From: Psilocybe cubensis
Taxonomy: Eukaryota
NCBI GenBank assembly: GCA_017499595.2
Contig: CM039007.1
Span: forward strand, 248,001-312,000
Direction: 5' to 3'
Length of the DNA: 64,000 bases
This document shows, piece by piece, positions 22,615 to 47,869 of this stretch. Both the position numbers and the translations under genes were made by a program. The notes beneath the pieces are model-generated. The model saw nothing but the letters and a program-made list of their open reading frames with translations. It had not been told where the DNA came from and did not search any database. The first letter of the stretch is position 1. Each line of letters starts with the position of its first letter.

Positions 22615-24146
22615 CCTGTGGGATATTGGAGGTCCAGGAGGTCCTCTGGAAAGTCTGAGTATATTTCATCGCTTTCTTTTATTGGCTGTTTAACGCCGGT
22701 CGCAAATTCTATAAATTCTGTGTCCAGACTTCGAATCGTTTAGCTATGAGAAATGTCACGGTAGAATGAAGGAAATACGTACCCATTGGTATGTCCTTGT
22801 GACCTCTCCCATTTTCTGTCGTCCATTAAATATGCCTAAAGTGGAAGGTCGCTGTTAGAGCAGTCTAGGTCGATTTCGGGGAACGTATGAGACGAGTCCA
22901 TAGCTGCGTATGAGAGATATATGTACTGAAGTGGACAAAGAAGCTTTTCCAGGGGATAATGGTAACGAGGGATACGAAACTGAAAAGCTTTCCACAACCG
23001 TTTGTGCCTGCTAGGACCGTAAAATATGGCACTATTTGACATTTTGGCCTGACTGAGTCCGAGGTTTAGTGCCACAATGCCACTTAAACCTTCTGGAAAG
23101 ATTAACATCGCTGCTCTGAAGTGCATAGGGTCCAATGAGGCAGATACTAATGAAAGATAAAAGATAAACCATCTGATGAATATGATTTAATGGAAAATGT
23201 GTATCTTAAGTCGCGTAGAATACTTCCTTCATCTGTTGAGCCTTCGGGAGCAAAAGACCATAATAACAGCATATGTGTTTGAAGAAACCACACCTAGTAT
23301 ATAGCTCTTAGTGCCACCGCAGGTCATCAATGCTTTTCTTTGGTTATCAATTGGATGGTTGAACGATCCGGTTGTTCTTACTTCACAACAAAAGCAATTG
23401 CCAGTCAAACAAGACCAACGATAAAGACTCATTCAATTACTGTTATTGTTGAAGACTGAGATACCACTCTTATACACACTTTCAGATCCATAGACCCTCA
23501 ACGTCTACTATATTCATCGTCAGTTGTCTGCAGTCACTGTCAAACACTCTTTTTCGACTGCCAATAGGGGCTATATCTCATCAATAAGGTCACGTGGTAC
23601 TACCGGTTATGGATCTGCCACTCAGTCGCGTCGCGTCCGAATATATCCGACGCGTCGTGCCACAGATTTTTGAAATTCTGGTCAAAACCATTCCGGTTCT
23701 GTTCTGTTCAATCACCACGTTGAGTGTCGAATATTTACTACCGAGGCAGGCTCATTCAATCCTAATCTGAAGCTCTGATCGTGGACATTGATCTTAACTT
23801 TAGGCATCCCTGGAAGAGCCGGAAGATGGTGGTTGACATTCAAATGTATCTACCAGGCGTTCGATTGTATCGGCTTCGAATACAGTCTGACAGCCCGGAA
23901 TTGATTATCGGCAAGTAATCTATCAGTCCAGTCCATTTCCTCAATCCAGCGTGAATAAAAGCCACTTCTTAATGTACTCAGCTTCATATACCTCACATTC
24001 CTTAACAACATTCCTTGCCGTAATCCAACCTCAGGTGCAAACCATACATATTCCGCTCCCTATTTCTTTGCTATATTCTAAAGTTTGTGCCGTTTGAGGG
24101 TTCTACTCTTCACACAAATGCTAATACGTTTTTCTTAGAATTCATC

Positions 24147-24633
24147 ATGCAACTGTTTGCCAACGTTCTTGCCATGATTTTTCTTGCAACCTACGCAATC
24201 CACACTGTGTCAGCCGCTCCCAATGGGCTATCACCGGGAGGTATTCAGTACTTCTCCAAGAGGCACGCTTTGTCCGCCTCAACCTGGAGGTCTGAAGAGG
24301 ACCCACACGCGTTTATGAACGCGAAAAATCTGGTCAAGAACATGCGAAGACAAATTCTCAACGATGCTGAGTCAACGCTGTCCACGGCGGAAGGTCCCTC
24401 TGTAGCCGCCGATGCTGCACAGACAGTAGAGAACAACACTGGTACTGATAGGTAAGTAAAACTTGCGTATTTCCTCCAATTCCTTCACATATTAATCGCT
24501 CTTCTGATTCCGCAGAAGTCAAGCCTCTGTAGGCCCTGTCGGTGCTAACACATCTTCTGTTCCCACCACAATTGGAGAGGCTGCCAATATTGCCCAAGGC
24601 GCAGCGTCATCCCCCCCTACTACCTCTACGTAG
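24147..24633 (+). CDS. Small secreted protein with dibasic sites and an Ala/Ser/Thr-rich tail, 2 exons
   Basis: Signal peptide MQLFANVLAMIFLATYAIHTVSA, then FSKR and MRR. Intron 24452-24515 (GTAAGT...CGCAG). Ends PPTTST*. Confidence 0.65.
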
Positions 24634-27659: not shown

Positions 27660-27666
27660 TATAAAT
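27660..27666 (+). promoter_or_regulatory. TATA box of His-rich precursor gene 1
   Basis: TATAAAT 80 nt upstream of ATG 27740. Confidence 0.55.
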
Positions 27667-27739: not shown

Positions 27740-28627
27740 ATGAAGGCCGTATTCTTTGCATTGGTGGTGGCATTCTTTGCCTCTGAGGCGCTGGCTATTC
27801 CTGTGCAACAGGGAGATACTAACAAGTACGCTTTGCAAGGCCATGGAACTACTTGATGTGCATTAACCAATTCTTCCAGTGCTGTAGGGTTACTCTACTC
27901 GCGTACCGACCCCCCAAAACGACAAGCAGCTGGAACCACCACGACCACGACATCGACTTCCACTACGAACACTGGGGAAGCCAATGACGATTCATTTGCG
28001 CTGGCTGCGCGAAAGGAAAAAACGCCCACCTATGGATATCCGCACAAACACAAGAAGCATCGCCATCATCACAAATACCACTACTCGCGAGCTGTTGAAA
28101 TAATCCCTGATAACGATGTTGTATCCGTTCCCCGGCCCATTGTCCAACCTTCCACCGAAAGCAACGAAGCCGATACAACTACAAGGTACGTCAAAACTAT
28201 CAAGCATTGAACTTATGTCTCTGATGCCTCTCGCTGCAGCGGGGTAACGAACAATGACACTGACAACAATGTCGACCAAGGCGACGAAAACGACATTGAA
28301 AACGAAGATAACAATGTGGGCGACGAGGGGTATGAGAATGATTATGATGACGATGACGACGACGACGACGATGAATATGATGCTTATTATTACGAGGAAG
28401 ACGACTACCACGGCGCTAACGGTAGCCCTATGGGCGGTGATGGCTTTGATGAAGGAACATTGGCTGAACGTGAAGAAGCAACAGTGACTTACGGGCACCC
28501 CCACAAGAAACATCATTGGTGGCACAAGCATCATCGTTACCACTACCGAAGTGACGAGCAGAGCGACGAAGCGCAGGAAAATGAGCACTACAGACGTCCG
28601 CACCGTAAGTATAACAAGAAGCATTGA
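27740..28627 (+). CDS. Secreted precursor with His/Lys/Tyr-rich cores and acidic spacers (KEP-like), 3 exons, 259 aa
   Basis: Signal MKAVFFALVVAFFASEALA. Introns 27826-27879 and 28186-28239 give one open frame. Cores are LAAR-KEKTPTYGYPHKHKKHRHHHKYHYSR, LAER-EEATVTYGHPHKKHHWWHKHHRYHYR and HYRRPHRKYNKKH*. Confidence 0.8.
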
Positions 28628-41862: not shown

Positions 41863-42875
41863 CTAAACTTCGTGTGTGTGGACAATGGCCGGCCCTTGTA
41901 CCGAATGTCCTTGGATGGCAGTGGCATGTGCTGGGACGGGGTGTCCTGGGACGGTCGTGGGGTGTGCAGGAACGGTAGTGGTGTGTGCTGGGAGAGCCGC
42001 CGTCTGTACAGTGTTTCCTGCAACCCCGGTAGTTCCAGCAGCGACAGGAGTAGATCCAACATTGTGTGCGGTGGGCTGAACATTGTTGTACGCAGTGGTG
42101 GTGGTTCCTCCCCCGGTCGTGGCTCCCACCGAACGGGCCTGACGAGTCTCAGGATATGTACCATACTCATTCCCCCCGTAAACCGGGTCGGAGAGTGTAC
42201 GTTTGCGGGTCAACATGCTGAGGAGACTAGCCAGGATAAGGAAGGTACTCAGAATGAAACACATCCACGAAAATGCCTTGATTGTTTCCAGAATGCGACA
42301 GACTTTGTAATGGCCTCGGCAGTGCTTCAGGTGAAGCCATTTGTGCTATTGTTGACCGCTCAGGTGGATGAATCTTCTAATGGGGGGACAATTACTCACT
42401 GTCATTATAGCGGCCCCGACGAGGAACATGACCCATATAACAAATAAGGACATATGTTCGGATATGTATTTGGAGAGAGGGTTACGAAGTTTCCCAAGAA
42501 TAGAAGCCAAGCTATGATAGAGATTGAGCGAGTGAGGCTCGAAAATTATTTAAATGGACGCACAACCAAGCGGAAATCAACAAGGCCAGGATAGATGTAA
42601 CCAGTAATTCCACGATGATTGGGTCTAGTATCGCGTTCAGCGCTCCCTGTTCGTACCACTACGAACGATAACGTACCGTAAAAGTGACTATTGCTCGTTA
42701 GGATATCGCCATTTCTAAGACTTTTAGTGTAATGAATCCTGTATCCCGTTAATCCGAGCAATACCACAGAAAGCGGGAACTAAACACGGGCATAAGTGAT
42801 GTACGACGACAACGTCAAAGGAACAGTGAAACAAACCAATAGCGCATAAAGCGCGGCGCGGATAGGGTTGAACAT
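41863..42875 (-). CDS. MARVEL-like four-TM membrane protein with Thr/Pro/His-rich tail
   Basis: MFNPIRAALY..., VLLGLTGYRIHYT, FYDPIIVELL, ACRGHYKVCRILETIKAFSWMCF. Tail carries PAH repeats. Confidence 0.7.
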
Positions 42876-43739
42876 GTTGAGGAGATGAGCTTTGTGTAAG
42901 TGGCAAGTGTTGGACGTCGGTCACTTTCAGCGCCTGACGTGAACATCGCAGAAATTCCTCGTTTTATATATTGATCCACATACACCACATCGGTGAACCA
43001 TGGCGGGTAAGTCAAGGCAAAATATCTAGAACATTGCGGCGCACATGAATCAAACGATTGATAACCACGTTTAAAATCTAGTAGATCAAACGATAATGAC
43101 GACATTTAAAGACGACATTTTCCTCCTATGTGCGGAAGTCGGAAGGCAGCTTTCTCTTTCCGAAACATCATATTGAGAAGGCGTAGACATGGTGAAAAAT
43201 AGAGGGAATATCGCAATGTGAAGGATAGGGAAATACCAATGATATTGATGATACCCTTATTATTGACTCCATAAACTAGTATGAATACTTCAGGAGGCTA
43301 TTTAATAGAGAGACGTGGTTGAGACGGCGTGGTGGAAGCATGGAAGGATTTAGTTTGGGAATAAAAATAGATCATAGTGTTCAAAAAATAGATTTTTTTA
43401 AAAAAAAATATGGGCACGTGACTGTATGAAGATAGGGGTTCAACGCTCAACTGGTTCGCATATTGCAAAGCATGATTGCTTGAAGATCAGGTCAGTGTTT
43501 TAGGGGAGTGAATGTTGATAAATTATTACAATTGTTCTTGAGATGAGAGAATGGAATGGGTATTGGTGGGTATATCTAGCTAGTCCTTATACAGATAATT
43601 TACATGCACATCGTGAGCAGCAACAGAAATCAGCAGCGTCAATAACTGTTTAAAAAGACGGTCTGAGTGGATGAAATAGCATAAATAAGCCATCTCTGTA
43701 GACATACTATATCAATTCATTGCCTTCGCTGTCATCGAT

Positions 43740-44512
43740 TTATATACGGGAGACGTTATCGCCATACTGGCTTTGTCGTGGATTCCATCTGCCGTGAAAG
43801 GGTTCGAAAAGGGATTTGTTGGCGAGACTAAAGAGAAGACTGAGTCCAAGGAGGACAGTGATGGTGATCCACCCGAGCCAAGCAAATGCGACTAGGGCAG
43901 AGAGCACACGGCATGCCTCAAATTGTTGACAAAACGACAAATTTCCCCAAGGACCCTGGCAGTGACAAATAGGCTCGGTGAGACTGGGACTGCACAGAAA
44001 TAGAAAATACAACACACCGAAGCTGTGGCTGCCCCAGCGATCCAGAATATCCACAAAACACTAAGCCCAACAATCTCCACAAGGAAGGTAGTGAAAGATT
44101 TATATTCGTATCGTTTGTGTATTGAGTATCCACTAGGCGACGTAAGCACAGGTAGAAAAATTGCCGATAGGCCGAGAACGTACACAAATACCGCCCAAGG
44201 CATGGTTATCAAGGTTGTGAAGAGAATCTCTACGACAACGGGATCTGTGGAAAAAATAGTTTGAGTCAATGGTCAATTATGGTCACTGGGGGAGATCGGC
44301 GAACCCGAAAAGCTGCGACCGTTATTCAGAGGGTCATGGGGGGGTAGGTGGTTTGTATAATTTAGCCTGGCGGCTGAGAGGCAGAATAGGACGAATGTGA
44401 AGAACAGCTTTTTAGTTATAGGAGTTAATCGCGGATGGTCATGCACACTGTTCAATACACTTACCAGTATACAATAGAGTATAATCCTCACAACGGGAAT
44501 ATCGACCTGCAT
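43740..44512 (-). CDS. MARVEL-like four-TM membrane protein, tandem paralogue
   Basis: MQVDIPVVRIILY, VLFCLSAARLNYT, DPVVVEILF, EIVGLSVLWIFW, FCQQFEACRVLSALVAFAWLGW. Confidence 0.75.
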
Positions 44513-46018
44513 TTTCTGGAATGTCCGAATTCGCGACGTACAGTCCTAACTATTTGGGCTCCCTTGGGAAAGAGTGAGGTTTTGAGTGGACAATGAAGTG
44601 GGATGCCGCGTTCAACGCAGACAACAGAGGCCTTGAAAAGAATGTGTGGTATGAGTTGGGAAGAGGGTGTGTCTAAAACTGCAACAGAAAGAGCTGCGAG
44701 GCGATGATGGTGGTGGTGGCAGGTAAAGGGCCAAAAGCCACGCGCTTACACGCGGACCTGCTGCTCAGTGATCGTTGGCCACACGGCATTTTTAGGGTGT
44801 CGCAAAGCGTGATCTGTCGACATCGGCTACTTTAGTCGAAGCCTGGAAGGTGTCTGTCCAATGTCGTGTGAGGAGGCTCGGGCATCTGTGGAATGCCCTA
44901 ACGACACGAGCTTGGCTGGCAACCAGAATATCAAAATCCATCCTTGAGCCTGCAAGCAATTTCTAACGGATGTTTGATACATAAAAGACGTCGAAAGACA
45001 AAAACTTCGGCCACATACCGCTGGTCATGGTGTTTCCCACATCATCATTCTGAATAATTATATAGCCGATCAGCTCTCAGTAGGTGCCAGGGATCAGTTC
45101 AGCATCCAAGCTGTGACTCGTTGTACGTTATGTCTACGCTGAAGTATGACTGCTGCTGACAGGCAACCACCAAATTCCAATAGTAGCCTGCACAGTAGTA
45201 TTCGGCAGTGTGTATATACATGCTACAGTCTTTTGTTCAGCGTTCTTGTGGTATTTGTACGACTCTTTGAATGTCAAAAAAATGGAGTGAGAAAATTTCA
45301 GAGAATGATGGCAACCGGATGGCAACTACTACTAGGCACACAGGATATTTAGCATGCCGAGTTGCCGCATCTGCTCAAGTATCTGAGATTTATCTGAGAT
45401 TGAAATGAGTGTCCCTGATGAGTTGCAATTAAATCTCAGGGTGCGCGAGGCAATGAGCGACAAGTTGTTAGATTTGGTCAAGACATAAAAAATTTGGAAG
45501 AGACGCAGGATGATTTGTAGAAACCATTACTCTCTCAATGCCGGAGTCAGGCTTTTAGCAACGGTGTAGCACGAAGCTAGTGTTGGTTACTAAAATTGTT
45601 TACACCTTCATTCAAGTTGGGGTTGCTGGAAGCTATGTAATATCCACTTAGGCCAACACTAAGCATCTTTTCTTTCTCCAAAAATGTTCTACCAAGTGAT
45701 ATTCTGCTAGTGAAGCTACTGAGCCTTCAATGTACTATCATTTGAGCGTTACTCTAGTCTCCGTCCAGGGATAAATGAAGCCATAGCGTGTAGAATACCC
45801 AATTCTATGGTGTTGGGTTAATAATACAACTTCCTTCTTTTAATCACACAATAAAAATAACCTGATACACAGTTCAGCTTTAGAGTACTTTGGGCAGTTA
45901 CTCCTAACTTTTGCGAGTCAGAGTGCTGGTGCACTTATCCTATCTCAGCGGTTCTCAAACTAGTAGCTTTAGCAGGAGGTGACTAACCTATATTCAACAT
46001 TCAATAGGGTTTTCACGT

Positions 46019-46025
46019 TATAAAA
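46019..46025 (+). promoter_or_regulatory. TATA box of His-rich precursor gene 2
   Basis: TATAAAA 67 nt upstream of ATG 46086. Confidence 0.6.
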
Positions 46026-46085
46026 GCCCTTCTTGTGCTACACGAGTAGCTTCAGAGTCTCTTGAGATTTCATTAGTACGACAAT

Positions 46086-46574
46086 ATGAAGAATATCTTC
46101 AGTATCTTCGCTGTTGCTTGCGCCCTTCTCTTCACTGGAGTCGGAGCCGTTCCGATTTCCTCTGACGAAGTTGAGGCACGCGAAACCGACTACTACCGCC
46201 ACCACTATAGGCACCGCTACCACCACTGGTACCCTCGTGAGGACGAAATTAACAACGAAGTCGCTGCGACTGAGAACAAAGAGGAAGGCGACCTCTTCCC
46301 ATTTGGCTTTGGATACCACCACAGATACGGTTATTACCCCCGCGACACTGACGTTGAATCGAGCGCCGATGAAGATGCTGAAGCTGCCAGCTCCAAGCTC
46401 TGGCCCTTCGGCGGCTACGGGTACGGCCCATTCCGTCACCGTATTTTCCACCGCCCCGGATTCTTCTATCGTCGCGAAGATGAGGACACCGACGACGCTG
46501 GCGCTGTACCATACCATCATCGTTATCGCTACCGTCACCGTCGCCCTTACTACCACCACCACAGGATATACTAA
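46086..46574 (+). CDS. Secreted multi-core His/Tyr/Arg-rich peptide precursor (KEP-like), intronless, 162 aa
   Basis: Signal MKNIFSIFAVACALLFTGVGA, propeptide ending EAR, then four cationic/aromatic cores separated by acidic spacers. Units end in YPR, YPR, YRR and the C-terminus. Confidence 0.88.
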   Translation: MKNIFSIFAVACALLFTGVGAVPISSDEVEARETDYYRHHYRHRYHHWYPREDEINNEVAATENKEEGDLFPFGFGYHHRYGYYPRDTDVESSADEDAEAASSKLWPFGGYGYGPFRHRIFHRPGFFYRREDEDTDDAGAVPYHHRYRYRHRRPYYHHHRIY

Positions 46575-47869
46575 ATATGGTGTTCTAAACCTCGACGGTT
46601 AGTATACAGTTTTGTGATGATTGCTGGGATTGATTGATTTTTAGAAGCCAATTAGGCATGGCTCTTAGTGCCTGATTCAGTTTCTGCTGGTGTATCTGTG
46701 GCGATAACAAATTGTAATATATGAGAAGGCTACAAGATCAATCAAAGATATTGTTGTATTACGACAAAGTTAATGAACCACATCGTATAACATGGAACCC
46801 TGCTAAATCGCATTAACCTCGTCGAAATTATGCGCATTAGACCAAATCACTTTCAGTAGTCTCCGGTTTGAGATCACGCTTCATAATATTTCAAAAGTAC
46901 AGTATCTTTGATCCGTAGATCATCCGAAGGTAATGCGAGAGCATATTCCGGCTTTGTCCGGGCCATCGTTGGGTGAGTGAAACGGTAGGAATCGAAGTGT
47001 TTTGACTGTTGTAATTCGACTTGCGAACAAATTTAGGTATCTTCTCAATATTTTTGAGATTTATGCAACACAGCTATTCTGTGCCTGGGTGATCTTCACT
47101 GATCTCCATGATCAGTTACTAGAAACATTGGCTTCCATCCATCCATACACCGACCGCGGACTTTACATGGCTCAAAGTCCGCATGGCTGTCTTGGCGCAT
47201 GTCACTATCTGCTCTCGACCTCTGATAATAACTTCACAGTTGGTTCCCTCGCTTCTATCTTTGTGCGGCCAACGTACGTCAATTTCTCGGTCAATCTATT
47301 CGCTTCACCAGAATTTTGGATGGTCTGGTGACTCCTAATTTTTGAGTATCTTTAGATCCAGGTGTTCAGAATACATAATGCAGTTAACATCCTATATTCT
47401 GTCCTATATTTTCAATTTGGAAATAGCTTAACTATCATTACACACACCGGATCAGTGATCAGTTGTTTCACTAACATTCGTATCGTTGACACCCGCACCA
47501 CCCAAATCAAATTCAAGAGCACTTCATCACCTGGAATTTTTATCGTCATATACGTATTGGAATCATATACACACTCAAACCATACATTCAAAGTCAAACT
47601 GTGCATCCACTACTGCTCCGTGCTTCAAGGACTTCAACAACGTTACAAAATGCAATCTCTTGGCGACATGTCCCCATCCGTTGTCAGTCAATACCTCCGG
47701 GCCACCCTGCGCAGTCCGTGAAGCAAGTAAAACACGGCGTTTTTGGGCCATTGTTGAGCAGCGATCTGGGTGCGGTAAAGAAATCTAAAAGGCCGGGTAT
47801 GGTCGAAACCCTTCTGTCTTTTTTCTACTTCTACATCCACCTTGAATAATCTAAGATTGACCGACGACG

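What the first reader, a model, noticed from the sequence alone, without database searches (positions are those of the whole stretch)
46086..46574. Multi-core precursor of histatin-like His/Tyr/Arg peptides
Seen: an intronless gene with a TATA box. It reads signal / VPISSDEVEAR / ETD-YYRHHYRHRYHHWYPR / EDEINNEVAATENKEEGD-LFPFGFGYHHRYGYYPR / DTDVESSADEDAEAASSK-LWPFGGYGYGPFRHRIFHRPGFFYRR / EDEDTDDAGAVP-YHHRYRYRHRRPYYHHHRIY. It has no Cys and strictly alternates acidic and cationic segments. Known: fungal Kex2-processed repeat proteins (KEPs) release peptides at Arg sites, and Ste13-type aminopeptidases trim X-Ala/X-Pro dipeptides. Acidic pro-segments neutralise cationic antimicrobial peptides, and histatins are His/Tyr/Arg/Lys-rich Zn/Cu-binding antifungals. 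Inference: a mushroom polyprotein that yields four non-identical metal-binding or defence peptides. I do not recognise it as a described family.
Basis: partly seen in the sequence, partly recalled or inferred. Interest (0 to 1): 0.82.

Follow-up and report, generated by a model that had tools for sequence, protein, structure and literature searches.

The report
Mushroom precursor of charge-masked cationic peptides
A small mushroom gene encodes a secreted chain of four positively charged, tyrosine- and arginine-rich peptides, each behind an acidic spacer; it belongs to a known but mostly untested class of fungal peptide precursors, and what its peptides do is still unknown.

Summary
The ORF is real: 162 aa, hydrophobic signal, TATA box, strong codon bias, frame intact in two other DNA runs of the species, and acidic/cationic blocks far beyond chance. 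One relative was found, Psilocybe cyanescens PPQ91120.1, already listed as a stand-alone Kex2-processed repeat protein (KEP) by Umemura 2020. Its three unit ends are Arg-Arg where this protein has Pro-Arg, Pro-Arg, Arg-Arg, each followed here by acidic residues, which supports kexin cleavage. Corrections: kexin cuts after the cores, so products are spacer+core fragments, and Ste13 cannot start on them. His-richness is not conserved (15 vs 6 His); Tyr/Arg/Gly/aromatic content, L[FW]PF starts and 18-aa spacers are. A Pleurotus KEP has the same spacer/core design. No DUF3328 oxidase lies within 264 kb here. No transcript, peptide or activity is shown. Best reading: a KEP secreting cationic aromatic peptides masked by acidic pro-segments, probably for defence; a cross-linked matrix material is the main rival. 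A second gene of similar design lies 18 kb upstream. The scan had no sequence look-alike elsewhere. New member of a known kind.

The parts
46019..46026 (+). TATA box (TATAAAAG), 67 nt before ATG
   Evidence: sequence; function inferred
46086..46574 (+). intronless ORF, 162 aa (P0001), single copy
   Evidence: in UniRef as a one-member cluster
46086..46148 (+). signal peptide, residues 1-21 (cleavage after Ala21 inferred from the small -3/-1 residues)
   Evidence: hydropathy up to 3.0 in 9-mers; SignalP not run here; the orthologue passed the SignalP-4.1 filter of PMC7329392
46149..46190 (+). short acidic pro-piece ending in EAR (Arg32, possible monobasic site) plus three residues
   Evidence: xEAR/xDAR-ended acidic spacers are common in the agaric KEP tables
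46191..46238 (+). core 1 (16 aa; 5 His, 5 Tyr, 4 Arg), ends Pro-Arg; no counterpart in the orthologue
46239..46292 (+). acidic spacer 1 (18 aa, 8 Asp/Glu)
46293..46343 (+). core 2 (17 aa, starts LFPF, ends Pro-Arg); 12 of 17 identical to orthologue core 1, which ends Arg-Arg
   Evidence: 0 of 400 shuffles
46344..46397 (+). acidic spacer 2 (18 aa, 7 Asp/Glu, ends in Lys); 10 of 18 identical to orthologue spacer
   Evidence: 0 of 400 shuffles
46398..46475 (+). core 3 (26 aa, starts LWPF, ends Arg-Arg); 18 of 26 identical to orthologue core 3
   Evidence: 0 of 400 shuffles
46476..46511 (+). acidic spacer 3 (12 aa, 6 Asp/Glu)
46512..46571 (+). core 4 (20 aa; 6 His, 6 Tyr, 6 Arg); internal Arg-Arg followed by Pro in both species
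   Evidence: match to orthologue core 4 not beyond composition (151 of 400 shuffles)
27740..28627 (+). second secreted gene of similar design (predicted exons 27740-27825, 27880-28185, 28240-28627; 259 aa; TATA at 27660): acidic spacers and three His/Lys/Tyr-rich segments; homology to the finding not established
   Evidence: BLASTP of last exon E 0.003 and 0.014 only

Best explanation
A KEP-type secreted precursor of a Psilocybe mushroom. (Shown) signal-like N-terminus, four cationic aromatic cores each behind an acidic piece, basic sites at the C-terminal end of each internal core. (Inferred, about 0.75) In the Golgi a kexin cuts after Arg51 and Arg86 (Pro-Arg), Arg130 (Arg-Arg) and perhaps Arg32, and Kex1 trims the basic ends; the Arg-Arg-Pro inside core 4 is spared. 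This gives four fragments in which an acidic N-terminal part is still joined to the core (Lys+Arg minus Asp+Glu: +2, -5, -1, 0), so the spacers work as built-in neutralisers or solubilisers during secretion. (Inferred, weak) The cores are unmasked outside the cell by acid pH (15 His move the mature chain from -6 towards +9), by metal binding, or by a second unknown protease at the spacer/core junction (Lys|Leu or Asp|Leu in the five L[FW]PF units of the two species). (Inferred, about 0.5 if processed) They act as a small cocktail of cationic aromatic peptides against competing microbes or grazers; Zn/Cu binding would be a side property of the two His-rich cores of this lineage, not the conserved function.
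For: Orthologue P0003 (E 3.6e-25; 47% identity over the alignment) ends its three internal units in Arg-Arg and is listed as a KEP. Pro-Arg is a known Kex2 site (PMC6624476 passages). Cleaved Kex2 sites are enriched in acidic P1', P2', P4' residues (PMC2515848 passages): the four proposed sites have 2-4 acidic residues in P1'-P4', whereas 13 of the other 14 Arg have none and the 14th is the first Arg of the Arg-Arg site. Agaric KEPs expressed in yeast were cut at single Arg (PMC9769878). Three kexin loci in the genome. Charge segregation and near balance are kept in both species. Units are gained, lost or duplicated between the species, as expected for a modular peptide precursor. Precedent for companion segments that shield a secreted fungal peptide: Ece1 (PMC12153327 passages).
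Against: No transcript, peptide or activity is shown. Ste13 cannot start on any fragment and no enzyme is identified for the spacer/core junction. This protein has only two dibasic sites and would fail the dibasic-only KEP filter. Synthetic agaric KEP peptides tested by Vogt et al. had no antibacterial activity and six kep knockouts had no phenotype (different peptides). His content is not conserved. Strain variation gives no sign of selection: 3 SNPs in 489 coding bases (2 change a residue, conservatively) vs 4 in 1122 upstream and 11 in 726 downstream. Only one relative was found, so conservation rests on two sequences.
Confidence: 0.45

Rival explanations
1. Structural or adhesive matrix material: the disordered polyampholyte, whole or kexin-cut, self-associates through Tyr/Arg/His contacts and is cross-linked by laccase, tyrosinase or peroxidase into hyphal sheath, fruiting-body matrix or spore wall.
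For: 18 Tyr, 10 Phe/Trp, 10 Gly, 15 His, no Cys in the mature chain; predicted disordered (Atlas pTM 0.12, pLDDT 0.46); Tyr/Arg/Gly, not His, is what the orthologue keeps; Tyr-rich proteins are cross-linked in coccidian oocyst walls (PMC3278417 passages); a Pleurotus KEP has many Gly/Tyr cores in tandem; codon bias suggests bulk synthesis.
Against: Single copy, found in one other species only, whereas a wall material would be expected more widely; conserved specific starts (L[FW]PF) and ends look like peptide termini; no fungal precedent surfaced in one search.
Confidence: 0.25
2. Metal-scavenging or detoxifying peptides (Zn/Cu/Ni) are the main purpose.
For: Cores 1 and 4 have 5 and 6 His; core 4 would carry His at position 3 (ATCUN-type) if cut exactly before Tyr143; the second gene at 27740-28627 also has His-rich segments.
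Against: Orthologue has 6 His and no His-His pair; its last core has no His at position 3; no HExxH.
Confidence: 0.1
3. Signalling peptides (hormone-like KEP products) recognised by a receptor through the conserved L[FW]PF start or aromatic end.
For: Conserved termini; signalling is proposed for basidiomycete KEPs (PMC6339444 passages).
Against: That proposal concerns KEPs with Ste13 signatures and short near-identical cores; these cores are long, unlike each other and lack the signature; neighbours are a mannosyltransferase, an Iml2/TPR protein and a P450.
Confidence: 0.08
4. Dikaritin-type RiPP precursor whose Tyr residues are cyclised by a DUF3328 (UstYa) oxidase.
For: The orthologue is marked 'DUF3328 within 15 genes'; cores are Tyr-rich; the genome has 21 UstYa matches.
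Against: No DUF3328 homologue in C10:148-412 kb by tblastn with 15 own-genome motif ORFs (0 hits; 52 cross-locus control pairs); nearest match 360 kb away; in P. cyanescens another KEP, PPQ91128.1, eight accession numbers away, carries the same mark and may be the true client.
Confidence: 0.06
5. Silent or decaying gene.
For: No expression evidence was obtained.
Against: Intact frame in the window and in runs X2 and X3, intact orthologue, TATA box, strong codon bias.
Confidence: 0.06

Closest known systems
Psilocybe cyanescens PPQ91120.1 / CVT25_013158 (KEP type 0, stand-alone, Umemura 2020 Table S2)
   Same: Only sequence relative found; signal, four cores, 18-aa acidic spacers, L[FW]PF starts, Arg-Arg-Pro in the last core
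   Different: All unit ends Arg-Arg; 6 His instead of 15; lacks core 1 and has the LWPF unit twice; DUF3328 within 15 genes there, none within 264 kb here; synteny not tested; a table entry only, no function
Pleurotus ostreatus KEP JGI 1112933 (Le Marquer list, reprinted in Vogt 2022 Table S2)
   Same: Kex2 site, then acidic Ala-rich spacer, then Gly/Tyr/Arg-rich core
   Different: Lys-Arg sites, many more and more similar cores, almost no His; homology not tested; no function known in what I read
Coprinopsis cinerea KEPs 434504 and 481379 (Vogt 2022 Table S1)
   Same: Acidic spacers alternating with basic hydrophobic cores; single-Arg sites
   Different: Cores are near-identical and aliphatic, and each spacer ends in its own Arg site followed by X-Pro, so the core can be freed; here no such site precedes cores 2-4
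Candida albicans Ece1 precursor
   Same: Non-identical kexin-released segments; companion segments shield the active peptide in the secretory pathway
   Different: No sequence link tested or expected; Lys-Arg sites; hydrophobic helical active peptide; nothing here indicates a cytolysin
Histatins (human salivary His-rich peptides)
   Same: Composition of cores 1 and 4 (His, Tyr, Arg)
   Different: Mammalian genes without spacer/core repeats (recalled); ATCUN and HExxH motifs absent or only conditional here; no Pfam match
Frog-skin and bee multi-peptide antimicrobial precursors (magainin, apidaecin types; recalled, search listing only)
   Same: Acidic pro-segments between cationic peptides
   Different: Animal, unrelated sequence; their spacers are removed by dipeptidyl peptidases (recalled), which does not fit these spacers

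Membership tests
KEP (Kex2-processed repeat protein) | N-terminal signal peptide | tested here: met
   hydropathy and small -3/-1 residues; SignalP itself not run; orthologue passed SignalP-4.1 in PMC7329392
KEP (Kex2-processed repeat protein) | three or more similar units | tested here: inconclusive
   within P0001 only cores 2 and 3 align beyond composition (4 of 400 shuffles); no DNA-level repeat of units; in the orthologue three cores do (0-1 of 400)
KEP (Kex2-processed repeat protein) | units delimited by dibasic sites (KR, RR, KK, RK), the filter of the published surveys | tested here: not met
   only Arg129-Arg130 and Arg152-Arg153; the other two unit ends are Pro-Arg. Met in the orthologue. 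Filed as orthologue of a listed KEP, in the wider sense of Vogt et al., who accept single-Arg sites
KEP (Kex2-processed repeat protein) | kexin-type site context and a kexin in the genome | tested here: met
   Pro-Arg/Arg-Arg with acidic P' residues; three P-domain loci
KEP (Kex2-processed repeat protein) | actual cleavage in vivo | not testable with these tools
   needs peptidomics
alpha-factor-like KEPs with Ste13 signature | X-Ala/X-Pro dipeptides right after the Kex2 site | tested here: not met
   0 of 4 post-Arg fragments here, 0 of 3 in the orthologue; a DPPIV_N gene is present in the genome
dikaritin precursors | DUF3328/UstYa gene close by | tested here: not met
   met for the orthologue within 15 genes
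dikaritin precursors | short near-identical Tyr-containing cores | tested here: not met
   cores 16-26 aa, at most 10 of 26 or 9 of 20 identical to each other
histatins | sequence homology | tested here: not met
   no Pfam family at E up to 1; no histatin among hits
histatins | HExxH zinc motif and N-terminal ATCUN motif | tested here: not met
   no Glu in any core; His at position 3 only for core 4 and only if cut before Tyr143; not in the orthologue
histatins | Zn/Cu binding and antifungal activity | not testable with these tools
   needs synthesis and assays

The most novel reading that the evidence does not exclude
Agarics have an overlooked class of 'charge-masked' defence precursors: kexin releases spacer+core fragments that stay inert until acid pH, metal or a second extracellular protease unmasks His/Tyr/Arg cores, which then work like histatins by convergence. 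The two genes in this window (46086-46574 and 27740-28627) would be separate instances, missed by dibasic-only KEP surveys because they use Pro-Arg and single-Arg sites.
Probability: 0.2. Interest if true: 0.72.

Novelty: new member of a known kind. Interest (0 to 1): 0.4.

Why it matters
Most fungal KEPs have no known function, and the agaric KEP peptides tested so far were inactive in antibacterial assays. These cores are strongly cationic and aromatic, short and Cys-free, so they can be synthesised and assayed cheaply; a positive result would give mushroom KEPs a first defence role and new peptide scaffolds. The Pro-Arg/Arg-Arg exchange between two species also shows that dibasic-only surveys undercount this class. 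The class, the orthologue's listing and the spacer/core design are already in print, which limits the surprise.

Tried and rejected
Homologue searches: word-indexed search with P0001 returned only itself among 31 candidates; with the two-sequence alignment only the two inputs among 1170 (lengths 89-310 only); exhaustive phmmer gave 2 proteins at E up to 0.001, itself and P0003. Pfam, PDB sequences (best E 0.12) and Atlas features: nothing usable. Metagenome scans: 339 pattern stretches, none confirmed; 5 DNA-pattern loci, all 5 without precursor context. Paralogues in the own genome: protein searches (the extra hit L004 at E 0.1 has a stop and lies antisense to another gene) and five DNA patterns found none; of the 52 matches only the first 30 came as loci and were read, 22 were not (two of these 22 are this gene and the second gene); L081 is a chance match in another gene. 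A composition scan of 264 kb found three cores of this gene and one chance hit; with its Tyr threshold it missed the second gene. Expression: no RNA holder listed; runs X4 and X5 are spliced RNA (five intron-sized joints in the upstream gene) and have no contig on the ORF; one study, contigs only, so this is no evidence either way. Strain SNPs are too few to test selection. Second gene: no homologue among 250 longer candidates, no paralogue; 1 of 24 core pairs beat 400 shuffles, too weak for homology. Synteny with P. cyanescens could not be tested. No structure prediction was run because the Atlas model is already of very low confidence. Literature searches showed no paper on this protein's function; supplement searches for its motifs were blank in PMC7329392 (which lists accessions, not sequences), PMC6339444 (4 files held as text; picture tables unseen) and, but for one Gly-Tyr motif, PMC9769878. 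Only the first 300,000 characters of PMC10282164 were searchable; subscription papers and bioRxiv supplements were not visible.

Full report
Observation. A TATA box lies at 46019-46026 and no splice-donor match lies inside the frame. The only Cys is residue 12, in the hydrophobic N-terminus. The mature chain has 20 Lys/Arg, 26 Asp/Glu, 15 His and 18 Tyr; its charges are in blocks (11 sign changes vs 29.8 +/- 3.8; 0 of 20000 shuffles). Codon use is strongly biased to C-ending codons (48 of 60 vs 393 of 790 in 14 hand-picked ORFs of the window). Contigs of two other DNA runs of the same species (X2, X3) keep the frame, with Ala11Val, Tyr77Phe and one silent change and no indel; these three changes are too few to show selection. 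The gene is therefore very probably real, but no transcript was seen.

Context. The gene stands alone between a spliced membrane-protein gene on the minus strand (43600-44963) and a GT15 mannosyltransferase, followed by an Iml2/TPR gene; a P450, a GH7 cellulase and a flavin oxidoreductase are further off. It is single copy. The genome has three kexin P-domain loci, one DPPIV_N locus and 21 UstYa/DUF3328 matches, the nearest 360 kb away; a tblastn with 15 own-genome motif ORFs found none in the 264 kb around the gene, with 52 control pairs positive.

Relatives. An exhaustive search of 1.84 billion representatives found one relative, P0003 (E 3.6e-25), which is Psilocybe cyanescens PPQ91120.1. 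PPQ91120.1 is row 6251 of Table S2 of Umemura 2020 (PMC7329392; abstract, sections 6, 7, Methods and the 19 P. cyanescens rows read), KEP type 0, i.e. stand-alone, marked as having a DUF3328 gene within 15 genes. Unit by unit: core 2 matches orthologue core 1 (12 of 17), core 3 matches its cores 2 and 3 (15 and 18 of 26), spacer 2 matches its spacers 1 and 2 (9 and 10 of 18); core 1 has no counterpart and core 4 matches only by composition. One unit was thus gained or lost and one duplicated or lost; without an outgroup the direction is open. Kept in both species: L[FW]PF starts, aromatic residues before the terminal Arg, 18-residue spacers, cores nearly free of acid (0 and 1 Asp/Glu in 79 aa), an Arg-Arg-Pro in the last core and a mature net charge of about -5 to -6. 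Not kept: histidine (15 vs 6).

Processing. The orthologue ends its three internal units in Arg-Arg; here the unit ends are Pro-Arg, Pro-Arg and Arg-Arg. Pro-Arg is a documented Kex2 site (PMC6624476, passages), acidic P1', P2' and P4' residues mark cleaved sites (PMC2515848, passages), and agaric KEPs were cut at single Arg in yeast (PMC9769878, parts 1-3 of 9 and passages). The four proposed sites have 2-4 acidic residues after them; 13 of the other 14 Arg have none. That Pro at P1' blocks kexins, sparing core 4, is recalled, not tested. Because the sites lie after the cores, kexin yields fragments 33-51, 52-86, 87-130 and 131-162 with net +2, -5, -1 and 0 (His neutral). Free cores 2-4 would need another protease, or the fragments are the products. 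The first fragment is nearly a free core, and it is the one without a counterpart in the other species.

Function. The best-supported reading is a KEP whose acidic segments neutralise and solubilise cationic aromatic cores during secretion, as companion segments shield the active peptide in Ece1 (PMC12153327, passages), with the cores acting outside the cell, most likely against competitors (0.45 overall; processing alone about 0.75). Against it: no activity data, no junction protease, and the agaric KEP peptides and knockouts of Vogt et al. gave no antibacterial effect or phenotype (other peptides). The main rival is a Tyr/His cross-linked or self-associating matrix material (0.25), by analogy with Tyr-rich oocyst wall proteins (PMC3278417, passages) and in line with the predicted disorder. 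Metal scavenging (0.10), signalling (0.08), dikaritin-type cyclisation (0.06) and a silent gene (0.06) are less likely. The histatin likeness is compositional: no HExxH, an ATCUN-type start only under one assumed cut (PMC7559477, passages), and it is absent from the orthologue.

Comparison with known systems. The design Kex2 site / acidic spacer / Gly-Tyr-Arg core is in Pleurotus ostreatus KEP 1112933, and acidic spacers with basic cores and single-Arg sites are in several Coprinopsis KEPs (supplement of PMC9769878, parts 3 and 4 of 9). By the dibasic-only filters of the surveys this protein itself would not be called a KEP, although its orthologue is. I file it as a new member of the KEP class in the wider sense, not as an alpha-factor-like KEP, a dikaritin or a histatin. 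Nine literature searches showed no functional study of it; subscription papers and unseen supplements could hold one.

Beyond the coordinates. A second gene, 27740-28627 (+), with TATA box, signal, two predicted introns that keep the frame (780 nt), long acidic stretches and three His/Lys/Tyr-rich segments, the first two ending in a single Arg, has the same logic. Its homology to the finding is not established and no relative was found. Two such genes in 64 kb keep open the bolder reading of an overlooked class of charge-masked His/Tyr precursors (probability 0.2, interest 0.72). Overall interest 0.4.

Noticed in passing
window 27740-28627 (+): Second secreted precursor-like gene: signal, Lys-Arg site, Thr-rich and acidic spacers, three His/Lys/Tyr-rich segments (the first two 13 of 23 identical); no homologue or paralogue found.
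   Followed up: partly
window 43600-44963 (-): Spliced membrane-protein gene covered by contigs of RNA runs X4 and X5, four GT-AG introns plus one more joint; looks MARVEL-like by recall, no Pfam hit on the piece tested.
   Followed up: partly
window 41863-42345 (-): Small protein with a hydrophobic segment and a Thr/Ala/His-rich repetitive tail; no Pfam family over cut-off.
   Followed up: no
window 24024-24452 (+): ORF with a signal-like stretch followed by a Lys-Arg site; no Pfam hit.
   Followed up: no
window 46866-47002: Runs X2 and X3 each show two alternative contigs here, with SNPs and small deletions; the 3' flank of the gene is much more variable than the 5' side.
   Followed up: no
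G000:C10 653-656 kb and 1133-1136 kb: Two three-match DUF3328 groups with the same layout and scores, apparently a duplicated module.
   Followed up: no
P. cyanescens PPQ91128.1: KEP of the widespread type 24, eight accession numbers from the orthologue and also marked with DUF3328 nearby; its counterpart in this genome was not located.
   Followed up: no
L060:1100-1700: His/Tyr-rich repeat reading is the antisense frame of an acidic ten-residue tandem repeat ORF; chance match.
   Followed up: yes
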